Shown: piece after piece, positions 3,611-60,335 of the stretch
How the letters are laid out: every line of letters starts with the position of its first letter
Numbering within the stretch: the first letter of the stretch is position 1
Assembly (NCBI GenBank): GCA_034926785.1
Contig: JAYFQU010000027.1
Coordinates: forward strand, 11,400-75,399
Origin: Christensenella sp.
GTDB lineage: Bacteria > Bacillota > Clostridia > Christensenellales > CAG-138
Length of the DNA: 64,000 nt
Direction of reading: 5' to 3'
Position numbers and translations under genes: made by a program
Notes under the pieces: generated by a model
What the model saw: only the letters and a program-made list of their open reading frames with translations
What the model was told of the DNA's origin: nothing
Database searches by the model: none

Positions 3611-4264
3611 ATGAACGGTTATTATGAGAATAAGGACTATGGTTCGCTGTCCGAGAAGGTCTATCGCTTTCTTCGCGATGGCATCGCCGAAGGCCGCTAT
3701 CAAACAGGCGATTGTCTGATTGAGATGAAAATCGCCGAAGAGCTTGGTGTGAGCCGAACGCCGGTACGCGAGGCGCTCAAACAGCTCGAACTGGAAGACC
3801 TGGTTTCGTCGCATCCCAATCGCGGCGTCGTCGTCAAAGGCTTATCCAGCGAGGACTTGCAGGATGTTTCTACCATTCGCCATCTGCTCGAAGGGCAGGC
3901 CGCCTTCTGGGCGGCGCAGCGCATAAACGATTCTCAACTCAAAGAGCTTCGAGAGGTTGTGGAGCTCATGGAGTTCTACACCGCGAAGAATGATGTCGCG
4001 CATCTCGTCGCGCTGGATACGCGTTTCCACGAATTGATCTATGAAGCGAGCGGCAGCCGTACGATCCGTCATATCCTCGCCTCGCTGCACCACAATATCC
4101 GCAAGGCGAGACAAAGCTCTTTAACCTTGCCCGACCGCGCGCCAAATTCTCTGGCGGAGCACCAGAATATCTTTCATGCAATTGAGCGCAGGGACGCCCC
4201 GGCCGCCAAGGCGGAGATGGATGCCCATGTCGCCATAGCCGCGGGAAACCGACCGAGCGAGTAA
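3611..4264 (+). CDS. GntR family transcriptional regulator (FadR-type, FCD C-terminal domain)
   Basis: Winged-HTH EMKIAEELGVSRTPVREAL followed by an all-helical FCD-like domain. Start set to ATG 3611 (MNGYYENKDYGSLSEKVY...); the upstream part of the ORF is AT-rich leader. Confidence 0.88.
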   Translation: MNGYYENKDYGSLSEKVYRFLRDGIAEGRYQTGDCLIEMKIAEELGVSRTPVREALKQLELEDLVSSHPNRGVVVKGLSSEDLQDVSTIRHLLEGQAAFWAAQRINDSQLKELREVVELMEFYTAKNDVAHLVALDTRFHELIYEASGSRTIRHILASLHHNIRKARQSSLTLPDRAPNSLAEHQNIFHAIERRDAPAAKAEMDAHVAIAAGNRPSE

Positions 4265-4331
4265 CCGCCGTCGGACTCCCGCTGTTTTTTTCTTCTCTTT
4301 TCACTCAACGACGCAACGGGAGGGCGCAGGC

Positions 4332-5546
4332 ATGCGATTGGACGCAATCTGTGAGCGGCACGCAAACGGCGGACCGGGTGAGTTTATTCTTGCAAAGGCC
4401 GAAGAGGCGCTGCCGTCCCTATTGGAATCCTGCCGTGGGGATGTCCAGGTGGTCTATCTTGATCCTCCTTTTGGAACGGGCGATACATTTCATATGAAGA
4501 TTGGCGCGGGAAAACGCCAGCTGAGTCTACCTGTATATGCGGATAATATGGACGAGAGCGCATATTTGAGCTGGATGCGCATCATCCTCTGCGGCGCGCG
4601 AGATTTGCTCAGCGAATCCGGCTCGCTCTATCTGCATATTGACTATCGCATGAGCGCAAAGCTCAGGCTCCTTTTAGATGAGATCTTCGGCGCACAAAAC
4701 TTCATGAACGAAATCGTCTGGTGCTACAAGTCCGGCGGTCGCAGCACACGCTACTATCCGCGCAAACACGACACAATCCTGTTCTATCGCAAGAGCGCAA
4801 AGGTCTACTTTAACATTCAAGCGGTTGGCAGCCCTCGCGGGCCGGAAAAGCGCAACCACATGAAGCGCTTTATCGACGAGAACGGGCGCATCTGTTTCTC
4901 CATACGATCCGCAGGCAAGGTCTACACCTACTATGAAGATACGCTGGTGTATCCCAGCGACGTTTGGGACGATATCGAGCACCTTCAGCAAAAGGATACC
5001 GAGCGCGTCGGCTATGCCACACAAAAACCGGAGGCATTGCTCAACCGCATCCTCCTCGCATCGTCGAAACCGGGCGATCTTGTCTGTGACTTTTTCTCCG
5101 GCAGCGGAACAACAGCCGCGTCGGCCAGCAAACTCGGCAGGCGGTTTCTGGTGTTGGATGCCTCCCCGTTATCTCTCTACACGATCCGCGCACGGCAGTT
5201 GAAATCCGCCAGCGCGCATTCCATGCTCGAAGGAGACAAGGAACTCGTTTTGCGCTATCCGATGGATGCAACGCCGGCGGAATGCAAAGCCTCCGTCACA
5301 ACCATTCGCGGCGCGCGCATGCTCTCGCTCGAAAGCGCTGGCTTCCACGCCGCATATCCGATTGTTTACGCAGCGGTCGGCTCGGTTGCGGGCGATTGTT
5401 TTGTTCCGTTCGCAACGGACTGCCGCCCGAAGCTTCCATTGCTCCTGCCAATAGCAGATCTTGAAAATCCCGTCGTGCAGTTTGTTGACGCCATGGGACA
5501 TATGGCGTTTTTCACGGTTGATTCGTTTAACGGGAGTGTTGAATGA
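4332..5546 (+). CDS. Site-specific DNA methyltransferase (beta-class N6A/N4C type) with ~130-aa C-terminal domain of unknown function
   Basis: Motif IV VYLDPPFGTG precedes motif I DFFSGSGTTAASA, the beta-class order. RBS GGGAGGG lies upstream of ATG 4332. No restriction endonuclease gene is adjacent. Confidence 0.85.
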   Translation: MRLDAICERHANGGPGEFILAKAEEALPSLLESCRGDVQVVYLDPPFGTGDTFHMKIGAGKRQLSLPVYADNMDESAYLSWMRIILCGARDLLSESGSLYLHIDYRMSAKLRLLLDEIFGAQNFMNEIVWCYKSGGRSTRYYPRKHDTILFYRKSAKVYFNIQAVGSPRGPEKRNHMKRFIDENGRICFSIRSAGKVYTYYEDTLVYPSDVWDDIEHLQQKDTERVGYATQKPEALLNRILLASSKPGDLVCDFFSGSGTTAASASKLGRRFLVLDASPLSLYTIRARQLKSASAHSMLEGDKELVLRYPMDATPAECKASVTTIRGARMLSLESAGFHAAYPIVYAAVGSVAGDCFVPFATDCRPKLPLLLPIADLENPVVQFVDAMGHMAFFTVDSFNGSVE

Positions 5547-5778: not shown

Positions 5779-5973
5779 GAGACCGTCAAAAAAAAGAATT
5801 TTTTGGCGAGGCGACCGCTCTCCGTCTCTCGTCCTTCGGACTCTGAATGGTAAAAGCCGTGACGAAACGGCCCAATTTCGGGCAATCTGTCACGGTGGCA
5901 AAGCCACCGCAGCCGGAATCTGCGGGTGAAGGGCAGCGGTCCAAAACAGTCCCGGGTCTTTTTTGACAGACCG
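5779..5973 (+). repeat. Family-Y structured intergenic repeat, copy A (~195 bp)
   Basis: Aligns end to end with the reverse complement of 34565-34756. The two share an identical 22-mer GGCAAAGCCACCGCAGCCGGAA (5897-5918). Ends are GAGACCGTCAAAAAAAAG... and ...CTTTTTTGACAGACCG (imperfect TIR). Confidence 0.7.
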
Positions 5974-30802: not shown

Positions 30803-31213
30803 TCAGTTGCGCTGGAATCCGAGATATCGCGTCCCTTGAAACGTAAGCTGTCCCTTATCCCCTTCCGCAAGCAGGCCGTATTCGCTGTCCCGCACATGAA
30901 ACTCCGTGCGGTCACCGCTCAGCACCTCAAACGTAACATAGTAGGTTGTGGCGGAGTATCCGAACTCTTGCATATGGTTCGTTCCCGCCGTGTTATGATG
31001 ATAGCTCACGTCGGATCGTTTAGCGACGATGCTTGCCTCCACCGTCAACACGGGGGAATCGTTGTTGCGTTTCCATTGCCGCGCACCCTGGGCCACACGC
31101 CAGATCATTAAGCCGATGACGATGGCAAAAAAGATCGTAAAAAAGATCGGCAGCACCGAGAACATGAAACCTGCGCCTTGAAACGGATCGAGATACATAC
31201 GAGATAACTCCAT
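30803..31213 (-). CDS. DUF2500 domain protein (N-terminal TM anchor)
   Basis: YYVTFEVLSGDRTEFHVRDSEYGLLAEGDKGQLTFQGTRYLGF matches DUF2500. The ORF stays open upstream into a GNAT remnant; ATG 31213 or 31198 is the likely start. Confidence 0.75.
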   Translation of the reverse strand: MELSRMYLDPFQGAGFMFSVLPIFFTIFFAIVIGLMIWRVAQGARQWKRNNDSPVLTVEASIVAKRSDVSYHHNTAGTNHMQEFGYSATTYYVTFEVLSGDRTEFHVRDSEYGLLAEGDKGQLTFQGTRYLGFQRN

Positions 31214-31713
31214 TTTACAAACCTTTTCAGTTATTGCGTCAAATGATAAGCACAAATAGCTATTTTCTTCGTCTAATTGGAACCCTAGTGATCTAAACGC
31301 ACCTGAGGACGCCGTGCTTTCCTCATTCGGCTGAACAATAACGAGTTTTACATTCGGAAGTTGCCGGATTTTTCCGAGAAGAAGTGGCAGCATCCCTGGG
31401 TCATAGTCCTTGCTAAGGTGCTTCGCATCGCCAGTCAGATCGTCAATGCTGAATGACGCTTCCAGCGGAATAAAGCCGTGCCAGACTTCCCCGCTGTTGC
31501 GAAATTCATAATATCGGCAGAAACCAACCGCTTCTCCATTCCGTTCTGCAATAAATGATGGAGCCACGGATATTCTTCCGTCTGGTGCTCCACTTCGTAG
31601 ATCCAGTCCTCCGGTTCCCGATACCAAGCCGTAATATGTTGAAGCCTCAACCGTGCGGCAAACAGCACTGTGTCAGCCTGCTCCAAGCGCAGCAGGTTGA
31701 TCGTTTCCCACAT
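31214..31713 (-). pseudogene. GNAT-like acetyltransferase disrupted by a 1-nt frameshift near 31555-31560 and lacking its own stop
   Basis: Frame A (31713 downward) reads MWETINLLRLEQAD...EEYPWLHH. Frame B continues ...FIAERNGEAVGFCRYYEF...GAFRSLGFQLDEE. The switch occurs at CATCATTTATTGC. Frame B runs in frame into the DUF2500 gene. Confidence 0.6.
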
Positions 31714-31853
31714 GCCGCAGCCTCCAGCCGGATCAGATCATTAAGAGTATATCAGAAATTCTACCCGCTGGGCGAATAACCTGTTTAAATAGTTGAACCA
31801 GCGCGTCGCCGCAATGACCGTCTATCCAAAAAGAATCCGCAGATCTGCGGGTT

Positions 31854-32024
31854 CAGCCCATCGACAAAGTCCTGCGGACTCTGCCGATGGGTTTTACTTT
31901 GGGTTAAAATGACGCGAATCGCGCCATTTTTTCACAAATTCGGCGAATAAATCGCCAAATTTGAAGGAACATGAGGGATTTTCGAAATCCCCCAAACCCC
32001 CTACTGGGTTTGTTGATGCTCTGC
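31854..32024 (-). mobile_element. Family-X MITE-like structured repeat, copy 1 (171 bp)
   Basis: Plus strand CAGCCCATCGAC...GTTGATGCTCTGC with 12-nt imperfect TIRs. Bracketed by 24-nt direct repeats AAAGAAYCCGCAGATCTGCGGGTT at 31830-31853 and 32025-32048. ~96% identical to 40827-40996. Confidence 0.75.
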
Positions 32025-32065
32025 AAAGAACCCGCAGATCTGCGGGTTCTTTGGCGGGCAATCGA

Positions 32066-33112
32066 CTATAAGGAGCGGTATTTTTTTAGAACCTGAATGT
32101 TCAGCAAGAAAAACAGCAGCGTAAAGCCAAGCATAACGGCCAAATCGAGCGCAACGTTTTCAAGCCCCGCGCCTTGCAGCATCACCTTTCTCAACGCGTC
32201 CGCTCCATAGGTCAGCGGGAATATCTTCGACAAATATTGTAAAAAAAGGGGCGACTCTCTAAGGTTAAACAAGCCGCAGAACATTACCTGCGGAATGATA
32301 ACAATCGGGATAAACTGAAACAGCTGAAATTCATTTCTTGCAAATGCGGAAAACAGCGTTCCCATAGCAAGCGAAGTGCCCGCGATGGCAAGATTGATCA
32401 GCAGCACAAGCGGGAAGTCTGTCTCCGTATGAACCTTGAGCACGTATACCAAAAAGAGCTGAATCACAACCGTTTGCAGAGCAGCGAACAAACCAAAGCC
32501 AAGAAAGTATCCAAAGACCAATTGTCCCCTGCGCAAGGATGAGACCAGAATTCGATCCAGCGTGCCGCTGATTCGCTCCCGTAAAAAAGCGATGCCCGCC
32601 AGCAGAAACACCAAAAAGAAGATGATAAAACCCATCATGCTCGGCGCGAGAAAGTCAAACTGCTCAAAATCTTCCGCGCCATGATATCGTTCCACCTTTG
32701 GCGGCTGAAACAGCCCCTTTGCCTGCGCGGAAATTTGCCGCGGCATGGAGGCCATCGCTTTTTCCTGAGCATATTGCAGAAACGCGCGTTTTGCAAGCAT
32801 CGTGAGGGAAGGATCCGTCCCTTCGGCCACATACTTGTCGCCTGCTATATAGCCGTCGCTCCTCCCTGCTTGCATACGGTCAATTGCTTCCTGTTCGTCA
32901 GTAACAAGCGTAATCTTCGCAATATCCCGCATCGCCTCGGATTCTACATAATCGTTCGAAACGACGTCTATATTTGCCGTCGTGACGCCGTTGCCCAATA
33001 GCAGGTAGAGCAGCGTCATGATTAGCACGGGTGCAATCAGCATAACAACCAGCGTACGCTTATCTCCCGCAATTTGGCGAATCAGCCGGCCCGCTATCAC
33101 GAATATCTTCAT
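32066..33112 (-). CDS. ABC-2 type transporter permease
   Basis: Start trimmed to ATG 33112 (MKIFVIAGRLIRQ), which overlaps the ATPase stop as ATGA. N-terminal TM, a large loop, then 5 C-terminal TM helices. Confidence 0.88.
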   Translation of the reverse strand: MKIFVIAGRLIRQIAGDKRTLVVMLIAPVLIMTLLYLLLGNGVTTANIDVVSNDYVESEAMRDIAKITLVTDEQEAIDRMQAGRSDGYIAGDKYVAEGTDPSLTMLAKRAFLQYAQEKAMASMPRQISAQAKGLFQPPKVERYHGAEDFEQFDFLAPSMMGFIIFFLVFLLAGIAFLRERISGTLDRILVSSLRRGQLVFGYFLGFGLFAALQTVVIQLFLVYVLKVHTETDFPLVLLINLAIAGTSLAMGTLFSAFARNEFQLFQFIPIVIIPQVMFCGLFNLRESPLFLQYLSKIFPLTYGADALRKVMLQGAGLENVALDLAVMLGFTLLFFLLNIQVLKKYRSL

Positions 33113-33846
33113 GCCGCGCCGCCTTTCGTTCCGCTGCGCTTTGCTGATTCGATAAACGTCGCTTCCAGCGTTCCAAACACGGTCTTTGCCTTTAGTGCAT
33201 CCGGCGTTCCGTCCTGAATAATCTTTCCATCTCGCAACAGAATCAATCGGTCGCACTTCTCCGCCTCGTCCATGACGTGCGTGGTCACGATAATCGCCCG
33301 GCCGAGCCCTTTAAGCCGCCGAAACTCCGCCCAGAAAAGTTCCCGCAGCACAGGATCAATCCCGACCGTCGGCTCGTCCAGAACGATCACATCCGGGTCG
33401 CCGATCAACGCCGCAGTCAACGACAGGCGCCGCTTCATCCCGCCGGAGTAGAACACCGCCTTCTTGTTTTCATCCCGATCCAGCTCCACAAGGCGCATCA
33501 GGTCGTGCGCCTGATCGGTAGCGGCGCGCTTTGTCATCCCTTTAAGCCGCGCAAAGAACACGAGATTTTCCAGCCCGGTCAGGTCTTCGTAGAGTGCGTC
33601 CTGCTGAGCCATATAGCCGATATGGTCCATCTGCTTTAGATTTGGCATCTTGACCCCCTGAATGCCGATCTCTCCCGCCTCCAGACGCAATGTGCCAAGC
33701 AGGCATTTCACAAGCGTCGTCTTCCCCGCGCCGGAAGGGCCAAGGACGCCGAGTATCTCCCCCTGCTGTAAAGATAAATCCACGCTGCGCAGCACCTCTT
33801 CGCTGCCGAAGCGTTTGACCAGATGTTGTGCCGCAATCACCTGCAT
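33109..33846 (-). CDS. ABC transporter ATP-binding protein
   Basis: Walker A GPSGAGKTT, signature YSGGMKRRL, Walker B VIVLDEP. Confidence 0.93.
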   Translation of the reverse strand: MQVIAAQHLVKRFGSEEVLRSVDLSLQQGEILGVLGPSGAGKTTLVKCLLGTLRLEAGEIGIQGVKMPNLKQMDHIGYMAQQDALYEDLTGLENLVFFARLKGMTKRAATDQAHDLMRLVELDRDENKKAVFYSGGMKRRLSLTAALIGDPDVIVLDEPTVGIDPVLRELFWAEFRRLKGLGRAIIVTTHVMDEAEKCDRLILLRDGKIIQDGTPDALKAKTVFGTLEATFIESAKRSGTKGGAA

Positions 33847-34484
33847 CGCTCATTCCATCCTTTCATGATACAATCCAAAAATCGCGCGACTTCCATAACA
33901 TCGCCCGAACCCGGCGTTCCGCCAAACATCGTATACGTGAGGATAAAACCCATCAGCTGCAGCATCGCCAGATGCGGATCGAGTTCGGACGAAATCTCCC
34001 CGCGCGGTTTTCCGTAGTCAATCACCTTCGTCACATACTGCTCAATCATCGGCATTATGGTCTCGCGCATTTGTTGGAGCAGCGGCGCGCGGTGGATCAG
34101 CTCCGGCAGAACGGATTTGATAAACCGCTCATTCTCTCGAATTACCTGAATGCGATCCAGTATAATCGCCTGAAAGATATCCCGCGCCGGCGCATCGTTA
34201 TACTCAATTAAAATCTGGTCGATCGGTTTGCTGATCTTCGGCAGCATCACGCGAATCAACAGCGGAACCATACGCTCTAAAATCGCATTCTTCGTTGGAA
34301 AATAGCGAAAAATCGTGCCCTCCGCTATGCCGGCGCGCTCGGCAATCTCTCTTGTACGCGTTGCCTCAAACCCTTTTTCCGAAAAGGCGTTGATCGCTGC
34401 ATTGATGATTTTAATTTCTTTGTCGGGCGAATTCTCGATATAGTCATGCAAGAACTCCGAGATATCGTAGCTGCTCTTCTGCAA
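33837..34484 (-). CDS. TetR/AcrR family transcriptional regulator
   Basis: INAAINAFSEKGFEATRTREIAERAGIAEGTIFRYF is the TetR HTH. It overlaps the ABC ATPase start by 10 nt. Confidence 0.9.
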   Translation of the reverse strand: MQKSSYDISEFLHDYIENSPDKEIKIINAAINAFSEKGFEATRTREIAERAGIAEGTIFRYFPTKNAILERMVPLLIRVMLPKISKPIDQILIEYNDAPARDIFQAIILDRIQVIRENERFIKSVLPELIHRAPLLQQMRETIMPMIEQYVTKVIDYGKPRGEISSELDPHLAMLQLMGFILTYTMFGGTPGSGDVMEVARFLDCIMKGWNERCR

Positions 34485-34564
34485 TGAAATCCCTCCATAT
34501 CAAGCAATGAGTGATTACTCACTCATGCTATTACAAAACAAAAGGCATGTCAATCGCATGCCTT

Positions 34565-34756
34565 CAGCCTGTTAAAAAAGTCTCGGGATTGTTAAGGCCG
34601 CGGCCTTACCCCATCGGTTCCGGCTGCGGTGGCTTTGCCGCCGCAACGGATCGCCCGGAATCGGGCGTTTCTTCGCAGCTCTTTGCCGTTCGGAGTCCGG
34701 AGGACGGGAGGCAAAGAGCGGTTGCCCCGTCAAAAAACTCTTTTTTTGACGGCCTC
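34565..34756 (-). mobile_element. Family-Y MITE-like structured repeat, copy B (192 bp)
   Basis: Plus strand CAGCCTGTTAAAAAAG...CTCTTTTTTTGACGGCCTC (imperfect TIR). Bracketed by perfect 23-nt direct repeats AAGGCATGTCAATCGCATGCCTT at 34542-34564 and 34757-34779. Confidence 0.75.
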
Positions 34757-34792
34757 AAGGCATGTCAATCGCATGCCTTGTTGTTTAGCAGG

Positions 34793-36388
34793 TTAGTTTT
34801 CGCTGGCAGGAGCGATATCAAGGAACTTCACATCCTTGTTCTTCTCTTCCATTCGGCTCAACGACCATTCATTTTTATAGAGTACCACCGGGCGCTGATA
34901 TTGATCCTCTAGCAGCATTGTGTCCGTATACGCCAGCATATCTTTATTGAAGTGGTCCGTCACCACCCAGCGCGCGAGCTGATACGGCAGGTTACGGATG
35001 CTGACTTCGACGTTGTATTCGTTCTTGAGCCGATATTCCAGCACCTCAAACTGAAGCGCGCCCGCAACGCCTATGGTATACATTTCGATGCCGAGATCGG
35101 GTTGCTTGAAGAGCTGAATCGCACCTTCCTCGGAGATTTGCTTGATCCCCTTTAGAAACTGTTTCCGCTTACCGGAATCGATGGTATGCACCTCGGCAAA
35201 ATGCTCCGAGGGGAACATCGGAATCCCTTCAAATCGAAACGCATTCTTTCCGCCGCAGAGCGTATCGCCAATCAGGAAGCAACCGGGATCAAATACGCCG
35301 ATGATATCGCCCGCATAGGCTTCCTCCACACTGATGCGCTCCTGCGCCAGAAACTGTTGAGACTGGGCAAGCCGCAGGGTTTTGTTCGTACGCTGGTGAA
35401 CAACCTCCATGCCTTTTTCAAATTTGCCGGAGCAGATTCGCATAAAGGCAATGCGATCTCGGTGCGCGGGATCCATATTTGCCTGAATTTTAAATACAAA
35501 GCCGGAGAAGTCATCGCTATCCGGCGCAATGCTGCCGTCGCTGTGCTGTTTGACGCCCGGGGACGGCGCCATCTGAATAAACGCCTCCAGAAACGGACGC
35601 ACGCCAAAGTTCGTCATCGCGCTGCCAAAGAACATCGGCGTCAACTCGCCCGCGCGCACCTTGTCCATGTCCAGCTCGTCACCGGCAATCTCCAGCAGTT
35701 CGATTTCCTCAAGCAGTTTATCGTAGAGGTGATCCCCCAGCAGTGCGCGAAACCGCGGATCGTCTACATCGCCGGAGTCGGACTGCGTCGTCTCCTGTCC
35801 GTGGCTTCCGCCTTCGAATAGCTCAATTCGCCTCGTTGTGCGATCATAGACCCCCCGAAAATCGCCATCAATGCCGATCGGCCAATTCATTGGATAGGAC
35901 CGGATCCCAAGTACGGATTCGATCTCCTCCATCAGCGCGAGCGGGTTTTTGCAGAAGCGATCCAGCTTATTGACGAATGTGAAAATTGGCACGCCGAACA
36001 TACGGCAGACATGGAAGAGCTTCTTCGTCTGCTCCTCAACGCCCTTTGCGCCGTCGATGAGCATGACCGCGCTGTCCGCCGCCGTCAGCGTTCGATAGGT
36101 GTCCTCACTAAAATCCTGATGCCCTGGGGTGTCGAGAATGTTGATTCGAAACCCCTGATAATCAAAATTGAGTACGCTGGAGGTGACGGAAATTCCCCTC
36201 TGCTTCTCGATTTCCATCCAGTCGGATACGGCGAACTTGCTCGCCTTTCGCCCTTTGACCGTTCCCGCGAGGCGAATCGCCCCGCCGAAGAGCAGCAGCT
36301 TCTCCGTGAGCGTCGTTTTGCCCGCGTCCGGGTGGGATATGATCGCAAATGTCTTTCTGCGGTTTACTTCGTTCGTCAAACTACCCAT
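34793..36388 (-). CDS. prfC: Peptide chain release factor 3
   Basis: RRKTFAIISHPDAGKTTLTEKLL, DTPGHQDF, 531 aa. Confidence 0.95.
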   Translation of the reverse strand: MGSLTNEVNRRKTFAIISHPDAGKTTLTEKLLLFGGAIRLAGTVKGRKASKFAVSDWMEIEKQRGISVTSSVLNFDYQGFRINILDTPGHQDFSEDTYRTLTAADSAVMLIDGAKGVEEQTKKLFHVCRMFGVPIFTFVNKLDRFCKNPLALMEEIESVLGIRSYPMNWPIGIDGDFRGVYDRTTRRIELFEGGSHGQETTQSDSGDVDDPRFRALLGDHLYDKLLEEIELLEIAGDELDMDKVRAGELTPMFFGSAMTNFGVRPFLEAFIQMAPSPGVKQHSDGSIAPDSDDFSGFVFKIQANMDPAHRDRIAFMRICSGKFEKGMEVVHQRTNKTLRLAQSQQFLAQERISVEEAYAGDIIGVFDPGCFLIGDTLCGGKNAFRFEGIPMFPSEHFAEVHTIDSGKRKQFLKGIKQISEEGAIQLFKQPDLGIEMYTIGVAGALQFEVLEYRLKNEYNVEVSIRNLPYQLARWVVTDHFNKDMLAYTDTMLLEDQYQRPVVLYKNEWSLSRMEEKNKDVKFLDIAPASEN

Positions 36389-36541: not shown

Positions 36542-36617
36542 TGGTGGAGCATGGGGGATTCGAACCCCCGACCTCAACATTGCGAACGTTGCGCGCTACC
36601 AACTGTGCTAATGCCCC
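36542..36617 (-). tRNA. tRNA-Ala (anticodon CGC)
   Basis: Reverse complement GGGGCATTAGCACAGTTGGTAGCGCGCAACGTTCGCAATGTTGAGGTCGGGGGTTCGAATCCCCCATGCTCCACCA folds as a cloverleaf. It has the G3:U70 Ala identity pair, anticodon loop TTCGCAA and an encoded CCA. Confidence 0.93.
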
Positions 36618-39077: not shown

Positions 39078-39635
39078 TTATTCCGCCCGTCTCTCCGGCG
39101 CAAAATACCCTTCGAGGCAATAGAGCGTAAATTTGTGCGGATGGCCTTCCTCCTCGCACTTCAACCGCAAGCAACATGGGCAAAGGTCGTCCAGCTTTGC
39201 ATCGAGCAGCCCTTTTTCCTCAAAGCGTGCATAGAGATACTTGAGGTACTTGCCCTCTGCGATGCGGCTGTGTTCATTCTTGTGCTCCAAGCCTTTCCAC
39301 TCGTAGAGACCCTTTGCGCCCTTGCTGGAATTGCAGCTTTTGCAAACGCGAACCACATTATCCGGCACATTCTCGCCCCCGCGGGAGCGCGGCAGAATGT
39401 GCTCCGTCGTCAGCGGTCCCTCCTGCCCGCAATAGATGCAGACATGCGGTTTCTCCATCTCAAGCAACCACTCGCTCACGGAGGTTGACCAGACGATTCT
39501 ACCGTCCTTTAGCTTGTTCATAAAGCTGGTGCGCAGCGGCCACTCGCGTTTATCGCCCGTAGCCGCGCCGGTCATGATTGCGGCATATTGCCAATAGAGT
39601 AAATCCCGTACTGTTTTCACCATGGCAGGAGGCAT
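39078..39635 (-). CDS. HNH endonuclease (stand-alone)
   Basis: CIYCGQEGPLTTEHILPRSRGGENVPDNVVRVCKSCNSSKG is the HNH/CxxC zinc motif. It has its own extended -10 (TGGTATAAT) and a GGGGA RBS. Confidence 0.85.
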   Translation of the reverse strand: MPPAMVKTVRDLLYWQYAAIMTGAATGDKREWPLRTSFMNKLKDGRIVWSTSVSEWLLEMEKPHVCIYCGQEGPLTTEHILPRSRGGENVPDNVVRVCKSCNSSKGAKGLYEWKGLEHKNEHSRIAEGKYLKYLYARFEEKGLLDAKLDDLCPCCLRLKCEEEGHPHKFTLYCLEGYFAPERRAE

Positions 39636-39711
39636 ATCGGTTCCCCTTTGTCGTTATTTGACTGCATTATACCATTGTGAAGCGCAACGCAAAACCTTTC
39701 TGTGTTTTTGG

Positions 39712-40754: not shown

Positions 40755-40826
40755 TCTCAGACATCCGCGGAACAGCCCGTCTCCTTGTAGCCCATTGTAC
40801 AAAAAAACACGCCGGGTGTCCGGCGT

Positions 40827-40996
40827 CAGCCCATCGACAAAGTCCCGCGGACTCTGCCGATGGGTTTTACTTTGGGTTAAAATGACGCGAATCGCGCCAT
40901 TTTTTCACAAATTCGGCGAATGAATCGCCAAATTTGAAGGAACATGGGGGATTTTCGAAATCCCCCAACCCCCTACCGGGTTTGCTGATGCTCTGC
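40827..40996 (-). mobile_element. Family-X MITE-like structured repeat, copy 2 (170 bp)
   Basis: Differs from copy 1 by 5 substitutions and one 1-nt indel. Bracketed by 17-nt direct repeats CGCCGGKTGTCCGGCGT at 40810-40826 and 40997-41013. Confidence 0.75.
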
Positions 40997-41029
40997 CGCC
41001 GGTTGTCCGGCGTATTGTTGTTATTTGCA

Positions 41030-41722
41030 TTATTCGGAGAACGCAAAATCCGCCGCCGATCCGGCATGAATCTTTGTGGTGTCAAAGAGCGGCAACGATA
41101 CATCTTCCTGCGATACGATAAGGCCCAACTCCGTGCAGCCAAGCAGAATCCCCTCCGCCCCGCGGCGATGCAGATTCGCAATCACGCGCAGATATGCCGC
41201 GCGCGAGTCGTCCTTGACGACACCAAGGCAGAGTTCGTAGAAGATCACACGATTGACGAGGTCGATGCCGTCATCTTCGGGAATAATAACCTCGATGCCT
41301 CGCTCCTCAAGCTTCTCACGGTAGAATGTCTGCGTCATGGTGTATTTGGTGCCGAGCAGTCCCACCCGCCTGATTCCTTGCGCGAGAAGCGCATCCGCTG
41401 CCGCCTCCGCGATGTGCAACAGCGGGATTGATATCTGCGACTGCACCTGAGGAGCCACCTTGTGCAGGGTGTTTGTGCAAATGAGTACGCAATCCGCACC
41501 CGCCTGCTCCAACCGTTTTGCAACCCCGCCGAGCAGCTGCGCCGCGCTTTCCCATTCGCCGCGGGCCATGAGCGCTTCCATTTCATAAAAATCCACGCTA
41601 TAGAGCAGAATCTTTGCCGAATGAAGGCCGCCGAGCCGGTTTTTTGCCGCCTCATTGAGCAGTTCATAGTAGGTAACCGTGCTTTCCCAACTCATACCGC
41701 CGATCAGTCCAATCGTTTTCAT
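41030..41722 (-). CDS. Aspartate/glutamate racemase family protein
   Basis: IGLIGGMSWEST and LGCTELG motifs. Start trimmed to ATG 41722 (MKTIGLIGG) behind GGGAGGAG, overlapping the upstream GNAT stop as ATGA. Confidence 0.88.
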   Translation of the reverse strand: MKTIGLIGGMSWESTVTYYELLNEAAKNRLGGLHSAKILLYSVDFYEMEALMARGEWESAAQLLGGVAKRLEQAGADCVLICTNTLHKVAPQVQSQISIPLLHIAEAAADALLAQGIRRVGLLGTKYTMTQTFYREKLEERGIEVIIPEDDGIDLVNRVIFYELCLGVVKDDSRAAYLRVIANLHRRGAEGILLGCTELGLIVSQEDVSLPLFDTTKIHAGSAADFAFSE

Positions 41723-42334: not shown

Positions 42335-42410
42335 TGGCGCGCCTGGCAGGATTTGAACCTGCGACCTACCGGTTCGTAGCCGGGCACTCTATCCACTGAG
42401 CTACAAGCGC
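42335..42410 (-). tRNA. tRNA-Arg (anticodon ACG)
   Basis: Reverse complement GCGCTTGTAGCTCAGTGGATAGAGTGCCCGGCTACGAACCGGTAGGTCGCAGGTTCAAATCCTGCCAGGCGCGCCA folds as a cloverleaf with anticodon loop CTACGAA and an encoded CCA. Confidence 0.92.
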
Positions 42411-44219: not shown

Positions 44220-44240
44220 CATATTTCCTCCCGCTTCGCG

Positions 44241-44320
44241 CTGGCAAAGCCGGCACAGCCGGATTTTATGGATGCAGGGTCTCGCCCCTTCACAATTCCG
44301 GAGCTTTTTTTGCGCGCTGG
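44241..44320 (+). repeat. Family-Y repeat, partial copy C (3' ~80 nt only)
   Basis: GCTGGCAAAGCCGGCACAGCCGGA...CCGGAGCTTTTTTTGCGCGCTG aligns with the 3' 80 nt of copies A and B through the shared blocks GGCAAAGCC, CAGCCGGA and CCGRGnCTTTTTT. Confidence 0.55.
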
Positions 44321-44342
44321 AACCCCAGCTTCCGCGGGGGTT
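44321..44342. terminator. Stem-loop shared by convergent nfo and glycosyltransferase genes
   Basis: AACCCC-agcttccgcg-GGGGTT followed by GTGTTGTTTAT. Confidence 0.55.
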
Positions 44343-60059: not shown

Positions 60060-60335
60060 TTGTGGCAAATAAAAACGCCCTCGTCTCGACGCTTACGCCG
60101 AAACAAGGACGATGCTCTCGCGGTGCCACCTTGTTTCCCGAATAGAATTCGGGCTCTTTACGGAAATGCCAACACATCTCCCGCGATATAACGGTCACGA
60201 CCCGTCGCAGGATACTTTTGTTTCCCCTGCGCGCTCGGCGGTCCATTTGAACGATCGTTTCCTGCAGGGCTTGCACCATTACCCCGCTCTCTGAGAGGTC
60301 GTATTCGTCCGTTATCTCCGCTTCACAGCTTATGA
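60060..60335 (-). promoter_or_regulatory. T-box leader, tryptophan specifier (UGG)
   Basis: Minus strand shows the Stem I AG box AGAGAG, the distal GGTGCAAG, and specifier AAA-TGG-A directly 5' of the closing helix CCGC. T-box sequence AAACAAGGTGGCACCGCGAG lies at 60117-60136. The terminator (60067-60111) is CGTCCTTGTTTCG...CGAGACGAGGGCG plus TTTTTATTT. Confidence 0.88.

What the first reader, a model, noticed from the sequence alone, without database searches (positions are those of the whole stretch)
31830..32048. Family-X MITE-like element (copy 1) lying between two copies of a terminator hairpin
A 171-bp segment (CAGCCCATCGAC...GTTGATGCTCTGC, 31854-32024) sits between the ABC-2 permease stop (32066) and the DUF2500 locus. 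It is bracketed by two copies of AAAGAAYCCGCAGATCTGCGGGTT (24 nt, 1 mismatch). Each copy contains the palindrome CCGCAGATCTGCGG. Read on the minus strand, only the distal copy (31830-31853) is followed by a T-run. The simplest reading is that this was the single rho-independent terminator of the permease gene and that it was duplicated around the insert. The insert has imperfect 12-nt terminal inverted repeats (CAGCCCATCGAC vs CAGAGCATCAAC). It consists almost entirely of five hairpins: CCCATCG..CGATGGG; ATGACGCG-AAT-CGCGCCAT plus T6; CAAATTCGGCGA..TCGCCAAATTTG; GGGATTT-TCG-AAATCCC; and CAAACCC..GGGTTTG. TIRs plus a flanking direct repeat indicate a non-autonomous mobile element. However, a 17-25 bp duplication that coincides with a terminator stem-loop does not match the 2-9 bp target duplications of common IS families. 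No transposase is present in the window.
Basis: seen in the sequence. Interest (0 to 1): 0.7.

Follow-up and report, generated by a model that had tools for sequence, protein, structure and literature searches.

The report
Mobile element that duplicates terminator hairpins
A 171-bp non-coding mobile element has landed on the transcription-terminator hairpin of a transporter gene and copied the whole hairpin to both of its sides, a rare insertion style so far documented for the Mycoplasma insertion sequence IS1630, and it recurs at every well-preserved copy of two related elements in this genome and its relatives.

Summary
The 171-bp unit X1 (31854-32024) lies between two copies of a 24-nt palindrome with one mismatch. 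A second X copy (40827-40996) lies between two copies of a different 17-nt hairpin. An unrelated-interior element Y1 (34565-34756) has similar ends and lies between two identical copies of a third, 23-nt hairpin. Six more X copies occur in two Christensenellaceae MAGs. Two have exact 15-26-nt hairpin duplications, two have decayed ones, and two have lost the gene-proximal copy. In related metagenome contigs the orthologous sites carry no element and one hairpin: nine sites downstream of the permease gene and three between prfC and tetR. So these are true target duplications that track hairpin size (16-26 nt). The elements are small non-coding MITEs that share a terminal motif. They always point the same way relative to the terminator. 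No transposase lies in the window or in any held flank. [quoted passage not shown] Family membership is untested because the partner transposase was not found. Verdict: real; a new member of a known but rarely seen kind; moderate interest.

The parts
31830..31853 (.). Copy of the target hairpin on the LE side, distal to the permease gene. On the minus strand it is followed by the T-run and is the working terminator after insertion.
   Evidence: Sequence. Only terminator-like hit in the bracket. Aligns to the single hairpin of orthologous sites.
31854..32024 (+). Element X1, 171 bp and non-coding, written with the CAGCC end (LE) first. The strand co-transcribed with the permease gene is the minus strand.
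   Evidence: It is 96% identical to X2 and 85-95% identical to six copies in two MAGs. Five hairpins.
31854..31869 (+). Left terminal inverted repeat CAGCCCATCGACAAAG.
   Evidence: Matches the reverse complement of the right end at 12 of 16 positions. Shares the motif sAGnsynTCrAmAAA with the Y ends.
32009..32024 (-). Right terminal inverted repeat, read on the minus strand as GCAGAGCATCAACAAA.
32025..32048 (.). Copy of the target hairpin on the RE side, proximal to the permease stop at 32066.
   Evidence: 23 of 24 positions identical to 31830-31853.
40810..40826 (.). X2 target duplication, LE side: CGCCGGGTGTCCGGCGT.
40827..40996 (+). Element X2, 170 bp, downstream of the Asp/Glu racemase gene (stop at 41030).
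40997..41013 (.). X2 target duplication, RE side: CGCCGGTTGTCCGGCGT (1 mismatch, in the loop).
34542..34564 (.). Y1 target duplication, LE side: AAGGCATGTCAATCGCATGCCTT.
   Evidence: (D9).
34565..34756 (+). Element Y1, 192 bp. Its interior is unrelated to X but its ends are similar (CAGCCTGTTAAAAAAG / GAGGCCGTCAAAAAAAG). It lies between the prfC stop and the tetR-ABC operon.
34757..34779 (.). Y1 target duplication, RE side, 23 of 23 identical.
5779..5973 (-). Element Y2, 79% identical to Y1. It is flanked only by a 7-nt repeat AAACGCC (5981-5975 and 5778-5772) and has no hairpin.
44235..44342 (-). Y3, a remnant of the LE part of a Y element (44235-44320). It abuts a single hairpin AACCCCCGCGGAAGCTGGGGTT (44321-44342) between convergent genes.
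   Evidence: E = 6e-8.

Best explanation
X1 is a miniature non-autonomous DNA transposon (MITE). It inserted at the intrinsic-terminator palindrome downstream of the ABC-2 permease gene. The transposase acts in trans and has not been identified. It joined the two element ends to the two DNA strands at opposite feet of the palindrome, and gap repair then duplicated the whole stem-loop. The resulting duplication is 16-26 nt long, as long as the local hairpin. The final order is gene, hairpin, element, hairpin plus T-run. The terminator is therefore rebuilt beyond the element, and the element becomes part of the 3' UTR. For Y1 a -35 box embedded in the hairpin is also rebuilt. Shown here: mobility, target-derived duplication, dependence on a hairpin, fixed orientation, and lack of coding capacity. 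Inferred: a DDE-type staggered strand transfer at the base of a palindrome or cruciform, as described for IS1630 of the IS30 family. Confidence is about 0.9 that it is a mobile insert with a true hairpin duplication, and about 0.6 that the mechanism is IS1630-like.
For: Three elements in the window are each bracketed by a different duplicated hairpin of 24, 17 and 23 nt. X copies in Christensenella sp. UBA7703 and Christensenellaceae OY762290.1 sit in unrelated gene contexts. Their duplications are exact at 25-26 nt (L005a) and 15-16 nt (L006) and decayed at about 22 nt (L008, L009). Each duplication spans the predicted stem-loop to within 0-4 nt. Orthologous empty sites exist. Nine related contigs have one homologous hairpin after the permease gene. 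Three have one homologous hairpin between prfC and tetR, followed by TATAAT and the TetR operator. X and Y are absent from 504 kb of those relatives. Terminal inverted repeats are shared by X and Y. There is no ORF with a family hit and no known RNA family above threshold. In 6 of 6 tandem-gene contexts the RE end faces the upstream gene. This holds although both orientations occur within one replichore, where GC skew is uniformly negative. [quoted passage not shown]
Against: No partner transposase was found. None lies in the window or in the flanks of the MAG copies, so the enzyme family is unknown. Y2 has only a 7-nt repeat and no hairpin. L007 and L005b lack the second hairpin copy. The empty sites come from other species (77-85% permease identity), not from sister strains. 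A symmetric palindrome alone does not explain the strict orientation. In all 8 X copies the terminator-sense strand folds 6-21 kcal/mol better than its complement. That hints at selection, or a step, at the RNA or single-strand level.
Confidence: 0.75

Rival explanations
1. The same kind of MITE, but mobilised by an IS1202-family transposase. The ISTde1 and IS1202 subgroups occur in Firmicutes and make long duplications. In this reading the hairpin coincidence reflects where such insertions are tolerated.
For: IS1202-family elements make direct repeats of 15-17 or 27-28 bp, and some target palindromic Xer sites in one orientation (bioRxiv 10.1101/2022.12.17.520857).
Against: That family's ends begin with TGT, whereas X and Y begin with CAG or GAG. 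Its repeat lengths fall in narrow classes. Here one element family gives 16, 17, about 22, 24 and 25-26 nt, each equal to the local hairpin.
Confidence: 0.07
2. A single-strand DNA element in the IS200/IS605 (PATE) or REP/RAYT style. It would recognise hairpins in the lagging-strand template and insert next to them.
For: Subterminal hairpins at both ends, strict orientation, and stronger folding of one strand in 8 of 8 X copies.
Against: To my knowledge those systems make no target duplication. Here 16-26 nt duplications are the rule. Orientation follows the local gene direction, not the replichore. Terminal inverted repeats are present.
Confidence: 0.06
3. RNA-mediated spread. The element would be copied from terminated transcripts and reinserted at terminators by a reverse transcriptase, with variable duplications as in target-primed reverse transcription.
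For: The element lies inside a 3' UTR that ends at a terminator. The fold is strand-asymmetric with G.U pairs on the transcribed strand. Duplication length varies.
Against: The flanking hairpins are local, not carried from a donor. The ends are defined inverted repeats. There is no RT gene, no group II intron signal in Rfam, and no poly-A or primer-like tail.
Confidence: 0.04
4. Not an insertion footprint. The site would have tandem terminators by chance, or the hairpins would be part of the repeat unit as long terminal repeats or an att core of a site-specific recombinase.
For: A palindrome in direct repeat is also an inverted repeat, so a single copy could be misread this way.
Against: The hairpin sequences differ between copies of nearly identical elements, and they match the single hairpin of orthologous empty sites. 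A recombinase core would be the same at every site.
Confidence: 0.01

Closest known systems
IS1630 of Mycoplasma fermentans (IS30 family; Calcutt, Lavrrar & Wise 1999, J Bacteriol 181:7597), and the related ISMhom-1
   Same: [quoted passage not shown] Duplications are 16-26 bp and insertion sites are intergenic or at gene 3' ends. From my memory of the 1999 abstract, the duplicated repeats derive from rho-independent terminators of neighbouring genes.
   Different: IS1630 is an autonomous 1.2-1.4 kb IS with a transposase gene and 27-bp inverted repeats, in an AT-rich mollicute. X and Y are 170-195 bp, non-coding, with inverted repeats of about 16 nt, in Christensenellaceae with 54% G+C. No IS30-type gene was found in any sequence held. 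I could not establish strict orientation for IS1630 because the paper is not held.
IS1202 family (IS1202, ISTde1 and ISAba32 subgroups)
   Same: DDE elements with unusually long target duplications. One subgroup inserts in a fixed orientation next to palindromic Xer sites.
   Different: Its ends begin with TGT. Its duplications fall in fixed classes of 5-6, 15-17 or 27-28 bp. The duplicated sequence is not reported to be a hairpin.
Classical bacterial MITEs (Correia, RUP, BOX, ERIC, Nezha), and SPRITE of S. pneumoniae
   Same: Small, highly folded, non-coding, intergenic, enriched downstream of genes, and co-transcribed with them.
   Different: To my knowledge these make 2-9 bp duplications such as TA, or none is known. 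SPRITE itself resembles a terminator, and no duplication could be established for it.
Bacterial class C (IIC) group II introns
   Same: From my own knowledge, they insert just after intrinsic-terminator stem-loops in a fixed orientation.
   Different: They are ribozymes of 700 nt or more, with or without an RT ORF, and do not duplicate the hairpin. There is no group II signal here.
REP-targeting insertion sequences (IS1397, ISKpn1, ISPpu9/10 and other IS110-family members)
   Same: They choose extragenic palindromes as targets (papers listed).
   Different: They insert inside or beside one specific repeated palindrome family, without duplicating it. Here any local terminator hairpin serves and it is duplicated.

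Membership tests
MITE (non-autonomous DNA transposon) | Small size, no coding capacity | tested here: met
   169-195 bp. The only ORF across X1 is a 55-aa TTG ORF. No Rfam family above threshold.
MITE (non-autonomous DNA transposon) | Terminal inverted repeats | tested here: met
   X matches at 12 of 16 positions and Y at about 13 of 17. The motif is shared by 7 ends.
MITE (non-autonomous DNA transposon) | Target-site duplication that differs from copy to copy | tested here: met
   Five exact or near-exact duplications of 16-26 nt and two decayed ones, all with different sequences.
MITE (non-autonomous DNA transposon) | Multiple dispersed copies, and empty sites in relatives | tested here: met
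   8 X and 3 Y copies in 3 genomes, in unrelated contexts. Single-hairpin orthologous sites.
MITE (non-autonomous DNA transposon) | An autonomous partner IS with matching ends | not testable with these tools
   No match to the terminal motif other than the MITE copies in 607 kb held.
IS30 family, IS1630 type | Duplication of an inverted repeat or terminator of variable length (16-26 bp) | tested here: met
   against.
IS30 family, IS1630 type | IS30-type DDE transposase with N-terminal HTH | tested here: inconclusive
   tblastn with E. coli IS30 InsI found nothing in the window or in 68 loci. The rest of the genomes could not be searched.
IS30 family, IS1630 type | Terminal inverted repeats of about 20-30 bp resembling family members | tested here: inconclusive
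   Only E. coli IS30 ends were available (TGTAGATTCAAT..GTCAA.GCAACA). There is no convincing similarity to CAGCCCATCGACAAAG.
IS1202 family | Ends beginning 5'-TGT | tested here: not met
   The ends are CAGCC, CAGAG or GAGGC.
IS1202 family | Duplication length in a fixed class (5-6, 15-17 or 27-28 bp) | tested here: not met
   One element family gives 16, 17, about 22, 24 and 25-26 nt.
IS200/IS605 PATE or REP/RAYT | No target duplication and no terminal inverted repeats | tested here: not met
   Both are present.
Site-specific integration (tyrosine/serine recombinase, attC) | The same core sequence at every junction | tested here: not met
   The flanking repeats are unrelated in sequence between copies.
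Group II intron (class C) | Ribozyme domains detectable by covariance models | tested here: not met
   No hit at the gathering threshold in the window or at E <= 1 in 31700-34900.

The most novel reading that the evidence does not exclude
X and Y are moved by a transposase that is not of the IS30/IS1630 type. It would read the structure and the polarity of an intrinsic terminator (extruded hairpin plus A/T tract) and cut at its feet. This would be a dedicated terminator safe-harbour strategy that rebuilds the terminator on every insertion. X would additionally have been shaped as a 3'-UTR RNA module, since the transcribed strand folds 6-21 kcal/mol better in all copies.
Probability: 0.2. Interest if true: 0.7.

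Novelty: new member of a known kind. Interest (0 to 1): 0.45.

Why it matters
Duplication of an entire target hairpin is a very rare outcome of transposition, and its mechanism has never been worked out. These elements give a second, phylogenetically distant set of examples, with many independent junctions and matched empty sites. They show that the duplication length is set by the hairpin. They also show that insertion has a fixed polarity relative to the terminator. This makes testable how a transposase measures a palindrome or cruciform. It also illustrates a low-cost niche for mobile DNA. The terminator is regenerated, and in one case so is an overlapping promoter -35 box, so neighbouring genes are little disturbed. 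For annotation, tandem identical terminators around a structured spacer should be read as an insertion footprint. Short-read assemblies break at these elements.

Tried and rejected
- **Exact-protein look-ups** of flanking genes, to find sister strains with empty sites. prfC and the 92-aa ORF are not on record. The ATPase, TetR and LytTR proteins gave only Logan contigs under 2 kb from the same strain, and these end inside X2 or just short of the Y1 site.
- **BLAST of X1** against plasmids and phages found nothing.
- **Two scans of viral contigs** with X patterns found nothing.
- **Further hairpin-bracketed elements or an autonomous element.** Searches of 607 kb of held DNA returned only the known copies. 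nhmmer profiles of X and Y gave the same result.
- **IS30 transposase.** tblastn with InsI found nothing.
- **Pfam scans.** 50 window ORFs and 20 ORFs flanking the MAG copies contain no mobile-element enzyme.
- **Known RNA family.** The best hit is rsmX at 30.6 bits against a gathering score of 56. I reject it as generic multi-hairpin resemblance.
- **Covariation.** Only 1 compensatory pair among 47 in 8 copies, too little divergence to test an RNA structure.
- **The original IS1630 paper** (PMC94219) is not held.
- **Literature searches** for MITEs that duplicate terminators found no precedent. The library is incomplete.

Full report
**1. The observation**

The sequence is as described.
- X1 is a 171-bp unit at 31854-32024.
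- It is flanked by AAAGAATCCGCAGATCTGCGGGTT (31830-31853) and AAAGAACCCGCAGATCTGCGGGTT (32025-32048).
- The ORF ending at 32066 on the minus strand is an ABC-2 permease. The next minus-strand ORF carries DUF2500.
- Among direct repeats spaced 40-1500 bp apart in the window, only two are exact over 17 nt or more. One is this pair (18 nt exact). The other is a 23-nt pair at 34542 and 34757.
The stability is far beyond shuffled controls (RNA -125.8 kcal/mol, z = -12.1; DNA z = -8.7).

**2. The same architecture recurs with different hairpins**

- X2 (40827-40996) is a second X copy, 96% identical to X1 by BLAST.
  - It is flanked by CGCCGGGTGTCCGGCGT and CGCCGGTTGTCCGGCGT (17 nt).
  - This sequence is unrelated to the X1 hairpin.
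- The 23-nt pair brackets Y1 (34565-34756).
  - Y1 is a 192-bp element with an unrelated interior.
  - Its ends are CAGCCTGTTAAAAAAG and, in reverse complement, GAGGCCGTCAAAAAAAG.
  - These resemble the X ends CAGCCCATCGACAAAG and CAGAGCATCAACAAAC.
- Seven ends of X and Y share the motif sAGnsynTCrAmAAA.
- The window also holds two other Y elements.
  - Y2 (5779-5973, minus) is 79% identical to Y1 and has only a 7-nt flanking repeat.
  - Y3 (44235-44320, minus) is a truncated remnant abutting a single hairpin.

**3. Copies elsewhere**

One scan of species-representative genomes with a 24-nt X core found five loci. Four are in Christensenella sp. UBA7703 and one is in Christensenellaceae bacterium OY762290.1. 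BLAST added a sixth copy, in L005. The neighbouring genes are ordinary and differ at each locus.

| Copy | Flanking repeats |
|---|---|
| L005a | Exact 25-26 nt, ACGGCGAAGCTTGATGCTCCGCCGT |
| L006 | Exact 15-16 nt, AACGCAGCATGCGTT(T) |
| L009 | Diverged, about 22 nt |
| L008 | Diverged, about 22 nt |
| L007 | Hairpin on the LE side only |
| L005b | Truncated at the RE end; hairpin on the LE side only |

In every exact case the duplicated segment spans the predicted stem-loop of the reconstructed target to within 0-4 nt. The length of the duplication is therefore set by the hairpin.

**4. Empty sites**

A metagenome scan with the permease protein returned 59 loci. None contains X or Y.
- **Permease site.** Nine relatives with 77-85% permease identity have a single hairpin after the stop codon, AAAGAATCCG-loop-CGGGTTCTTTTTT. 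It is followed by the same downstream region. This is the homologue of the hairpin that is present twice in the window.
- **prfC-tetR site.** Three relatives have a single hairpin, AAAGCATGTTTTGATTGACATGCTTTTTTT. It is followed by TATAAT and the palindrome GAGTGAG.GGTCACTCAT. This is the homologue of the Y1 bracket.

Removing the element and one repeat copy from the window restores colinearity with these sites.

**5. Orientation**

In every copy the CAGCC end (LE) abuts the hairpin copy that keeps the A-run on that strand. On the gene-sense strand this is the T-run. The order is therefore gene stop, hairpin, RE...LE, hairpin, T-run.
- In 6 of 6 tandem-gene contexts the RE end faces the upstream gene: X1, X2, Y1, Y2, L008 and L009.
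- Convergent contexts are uninformative.
- GC skew is negative throughout the window, yet X1, X2 and Y1 point one way and Y2 and Y3 the other. Orientation thus follows local transcription or terminator polarity, not replication direction.
- Where copies have decayed (L007, L005b, Y3, L008, L009), the gene-proximal RE-side hairpin or end is the part lost or degraded. The distal hairpin with its T-run stays intact. This fits selection on the distal copy as the working terminator.

**6. What it is and how it most likely works**

X and Y are MITE-like non-autonomous transposons.

*Shown:*
- Multicopy dispersal.
- Terminal inverted repeats.
- Copy-specific target duplications.
- Empty orthologous sites.
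- No coding capacity.
- No transposase, integrase or RT domain in 50 window ORFs or in 20 flanking ORFs of the MAG copies.

*Inferred:* a DDE-type transposase supplied in trans joins the element ends to opposite strands at the two feet of the palindrome, which may be extruded as a cruciform. Repair then duplicates the entire stem-loop.

*Consequences that follow from the sequence:*
- The terminator is regenerated distal to the element.
- At Y1, the TTGACA box inside the hairpin is regenerated next to the tetR-operon promoter region.
- The two palindromic copies can pair with each other in a transcript and enclose the element in a duplex of about 22 bp.

**7. An unexplained asymmetry**

In all eight X copies the gene-sense strand folds 6-21 kcal/mol better than its complement. 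Four conserved G.U pairs on that strand become A.C mismatches on the other strand. Y shows no such bias. This may reflect selection on the 3'-UTR RNA, a single-strand step, or a few inherited C-to-T changes in the founder. With only one compensatory change among 47 pairs, covariation cannot decide.

**8. Comparison with what is known**

- **IS1630** is the only close precedent I found. It is an IS30-family element of Mycoplasma fermentans.
  - Later papers give duplications of 19-26 bp, and of 16, 23, 25 and 26 bp.
  - ISMhom-1 is reported to behave similarly.
  - From my memory of the 1999 abstract, the duplicated repeats derive from rho-independent terminators. The paper itself is not held.
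  - X and Y therefore work like IS1630.
  - Membership of the IS30 family is not established, because no partner transposase could be searched for beyond the sequence held.
- **The IS1202 family** also makes long duplications. It fails on two tested features: TGT ends and fixed length classes.
- **IS200/IS605-type elements, site-specific recombination and group II introns** each fail a defining feature (see the membership table).
- **A 2024 review of prokaryotic MITEs** and my literature searches gave no MITE with this insertion signature. The library is incomplete.

**9. Verdict**

It is best filed as a new member of a known but rarely documented kind. In this case it is non-autonomous, comprises two families, and comes from Christensenellaceae. 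The features I found no report of are the strict terminator polarity, the matched empty sites and the strand-asymmetric fold of X. Interest is moderate (0.45). It would rise if the partner enzyme proves not to be of the IS30 type.

Noticed in passing
window 34500-34564; L010, L011 and L016 intergenic regions: The prfC terminator hairpin contains a TTGACA box. In relatives this box lies 17 nt upstream of TATAAT, followed by a conserved palindrome GAGTGAGTGGTCACTCAT just before the tetR-ABC operon. This looks like a terminator overlapping a TetR-controlled promoter and operator.
   Followed up: partly
window 30803-31713 (minus strand): The region downstream of X1 reads as a GNAT-like acetyltransferase N-terminus (92-aa ORF, 31435-31713). 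This ORF overlaps, in a different frame, a 274-aa ORF whose C-terminal part is DUF2500. In relatives L016 and L068 an intact homologue of the acetyltransferase lies between prfC and tetR. This suggests a frameshifted or rearranged gene here.
   Followed up: partly
L005 2700-2900: A tandem array of units of about 65-70 nt in Christensenella sp. UBA7703. Each unit has an A-run, the hairpin GCTTACGCCTTTGTAAGC and a second hairpin. A masked run of N interrupts the array. It differs from X and Y.
   Followed up: no
L001-L004 (Logan contigs of the same strain): Short-read contigs stop inside X2 (L003, L004) or just short of the Y1 site (L001). This is consistent with these elements being multicopy and breaking assemblies.
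   Followed up: yes
window 60102-60335 (minus strand); 36542-36617; 42335-42410: A T-box leader (106 bits) lies upstream of a PALP-domain enzyme gene. There are also tRNA-Ala(CGC) and tRNA-Arg(ACG) genes.
   Followed up: no
window 39081-39653 (minus strand) and 4239-5543 (plus strand): A stand-alone HNH endonuclease ORF, and an N6/N4 DNA methylase ORF. Y2 lies just downstream of the methylase gene.
   Followed up: no
window 31933-32052 (plus strand): A sub-threshold Rfam hit to rsmX (30.6 bits against a gathering score of 56, E = 0.004). It covers the right half of X1 plus the flanking hairpin. It probably reflects only a string of hairpins ending in a terminator.
   Followed up: partly
L043 13880-14680: A direct duplication with a period of about 742 bp that includes a terminator-like hairpin AAAAGCGCTTACGCGTTTTTGTT, in a distant relative's contig. 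It looks like a segmental tandem duplication, not an X/Y-type insertion.
   Followed up: no
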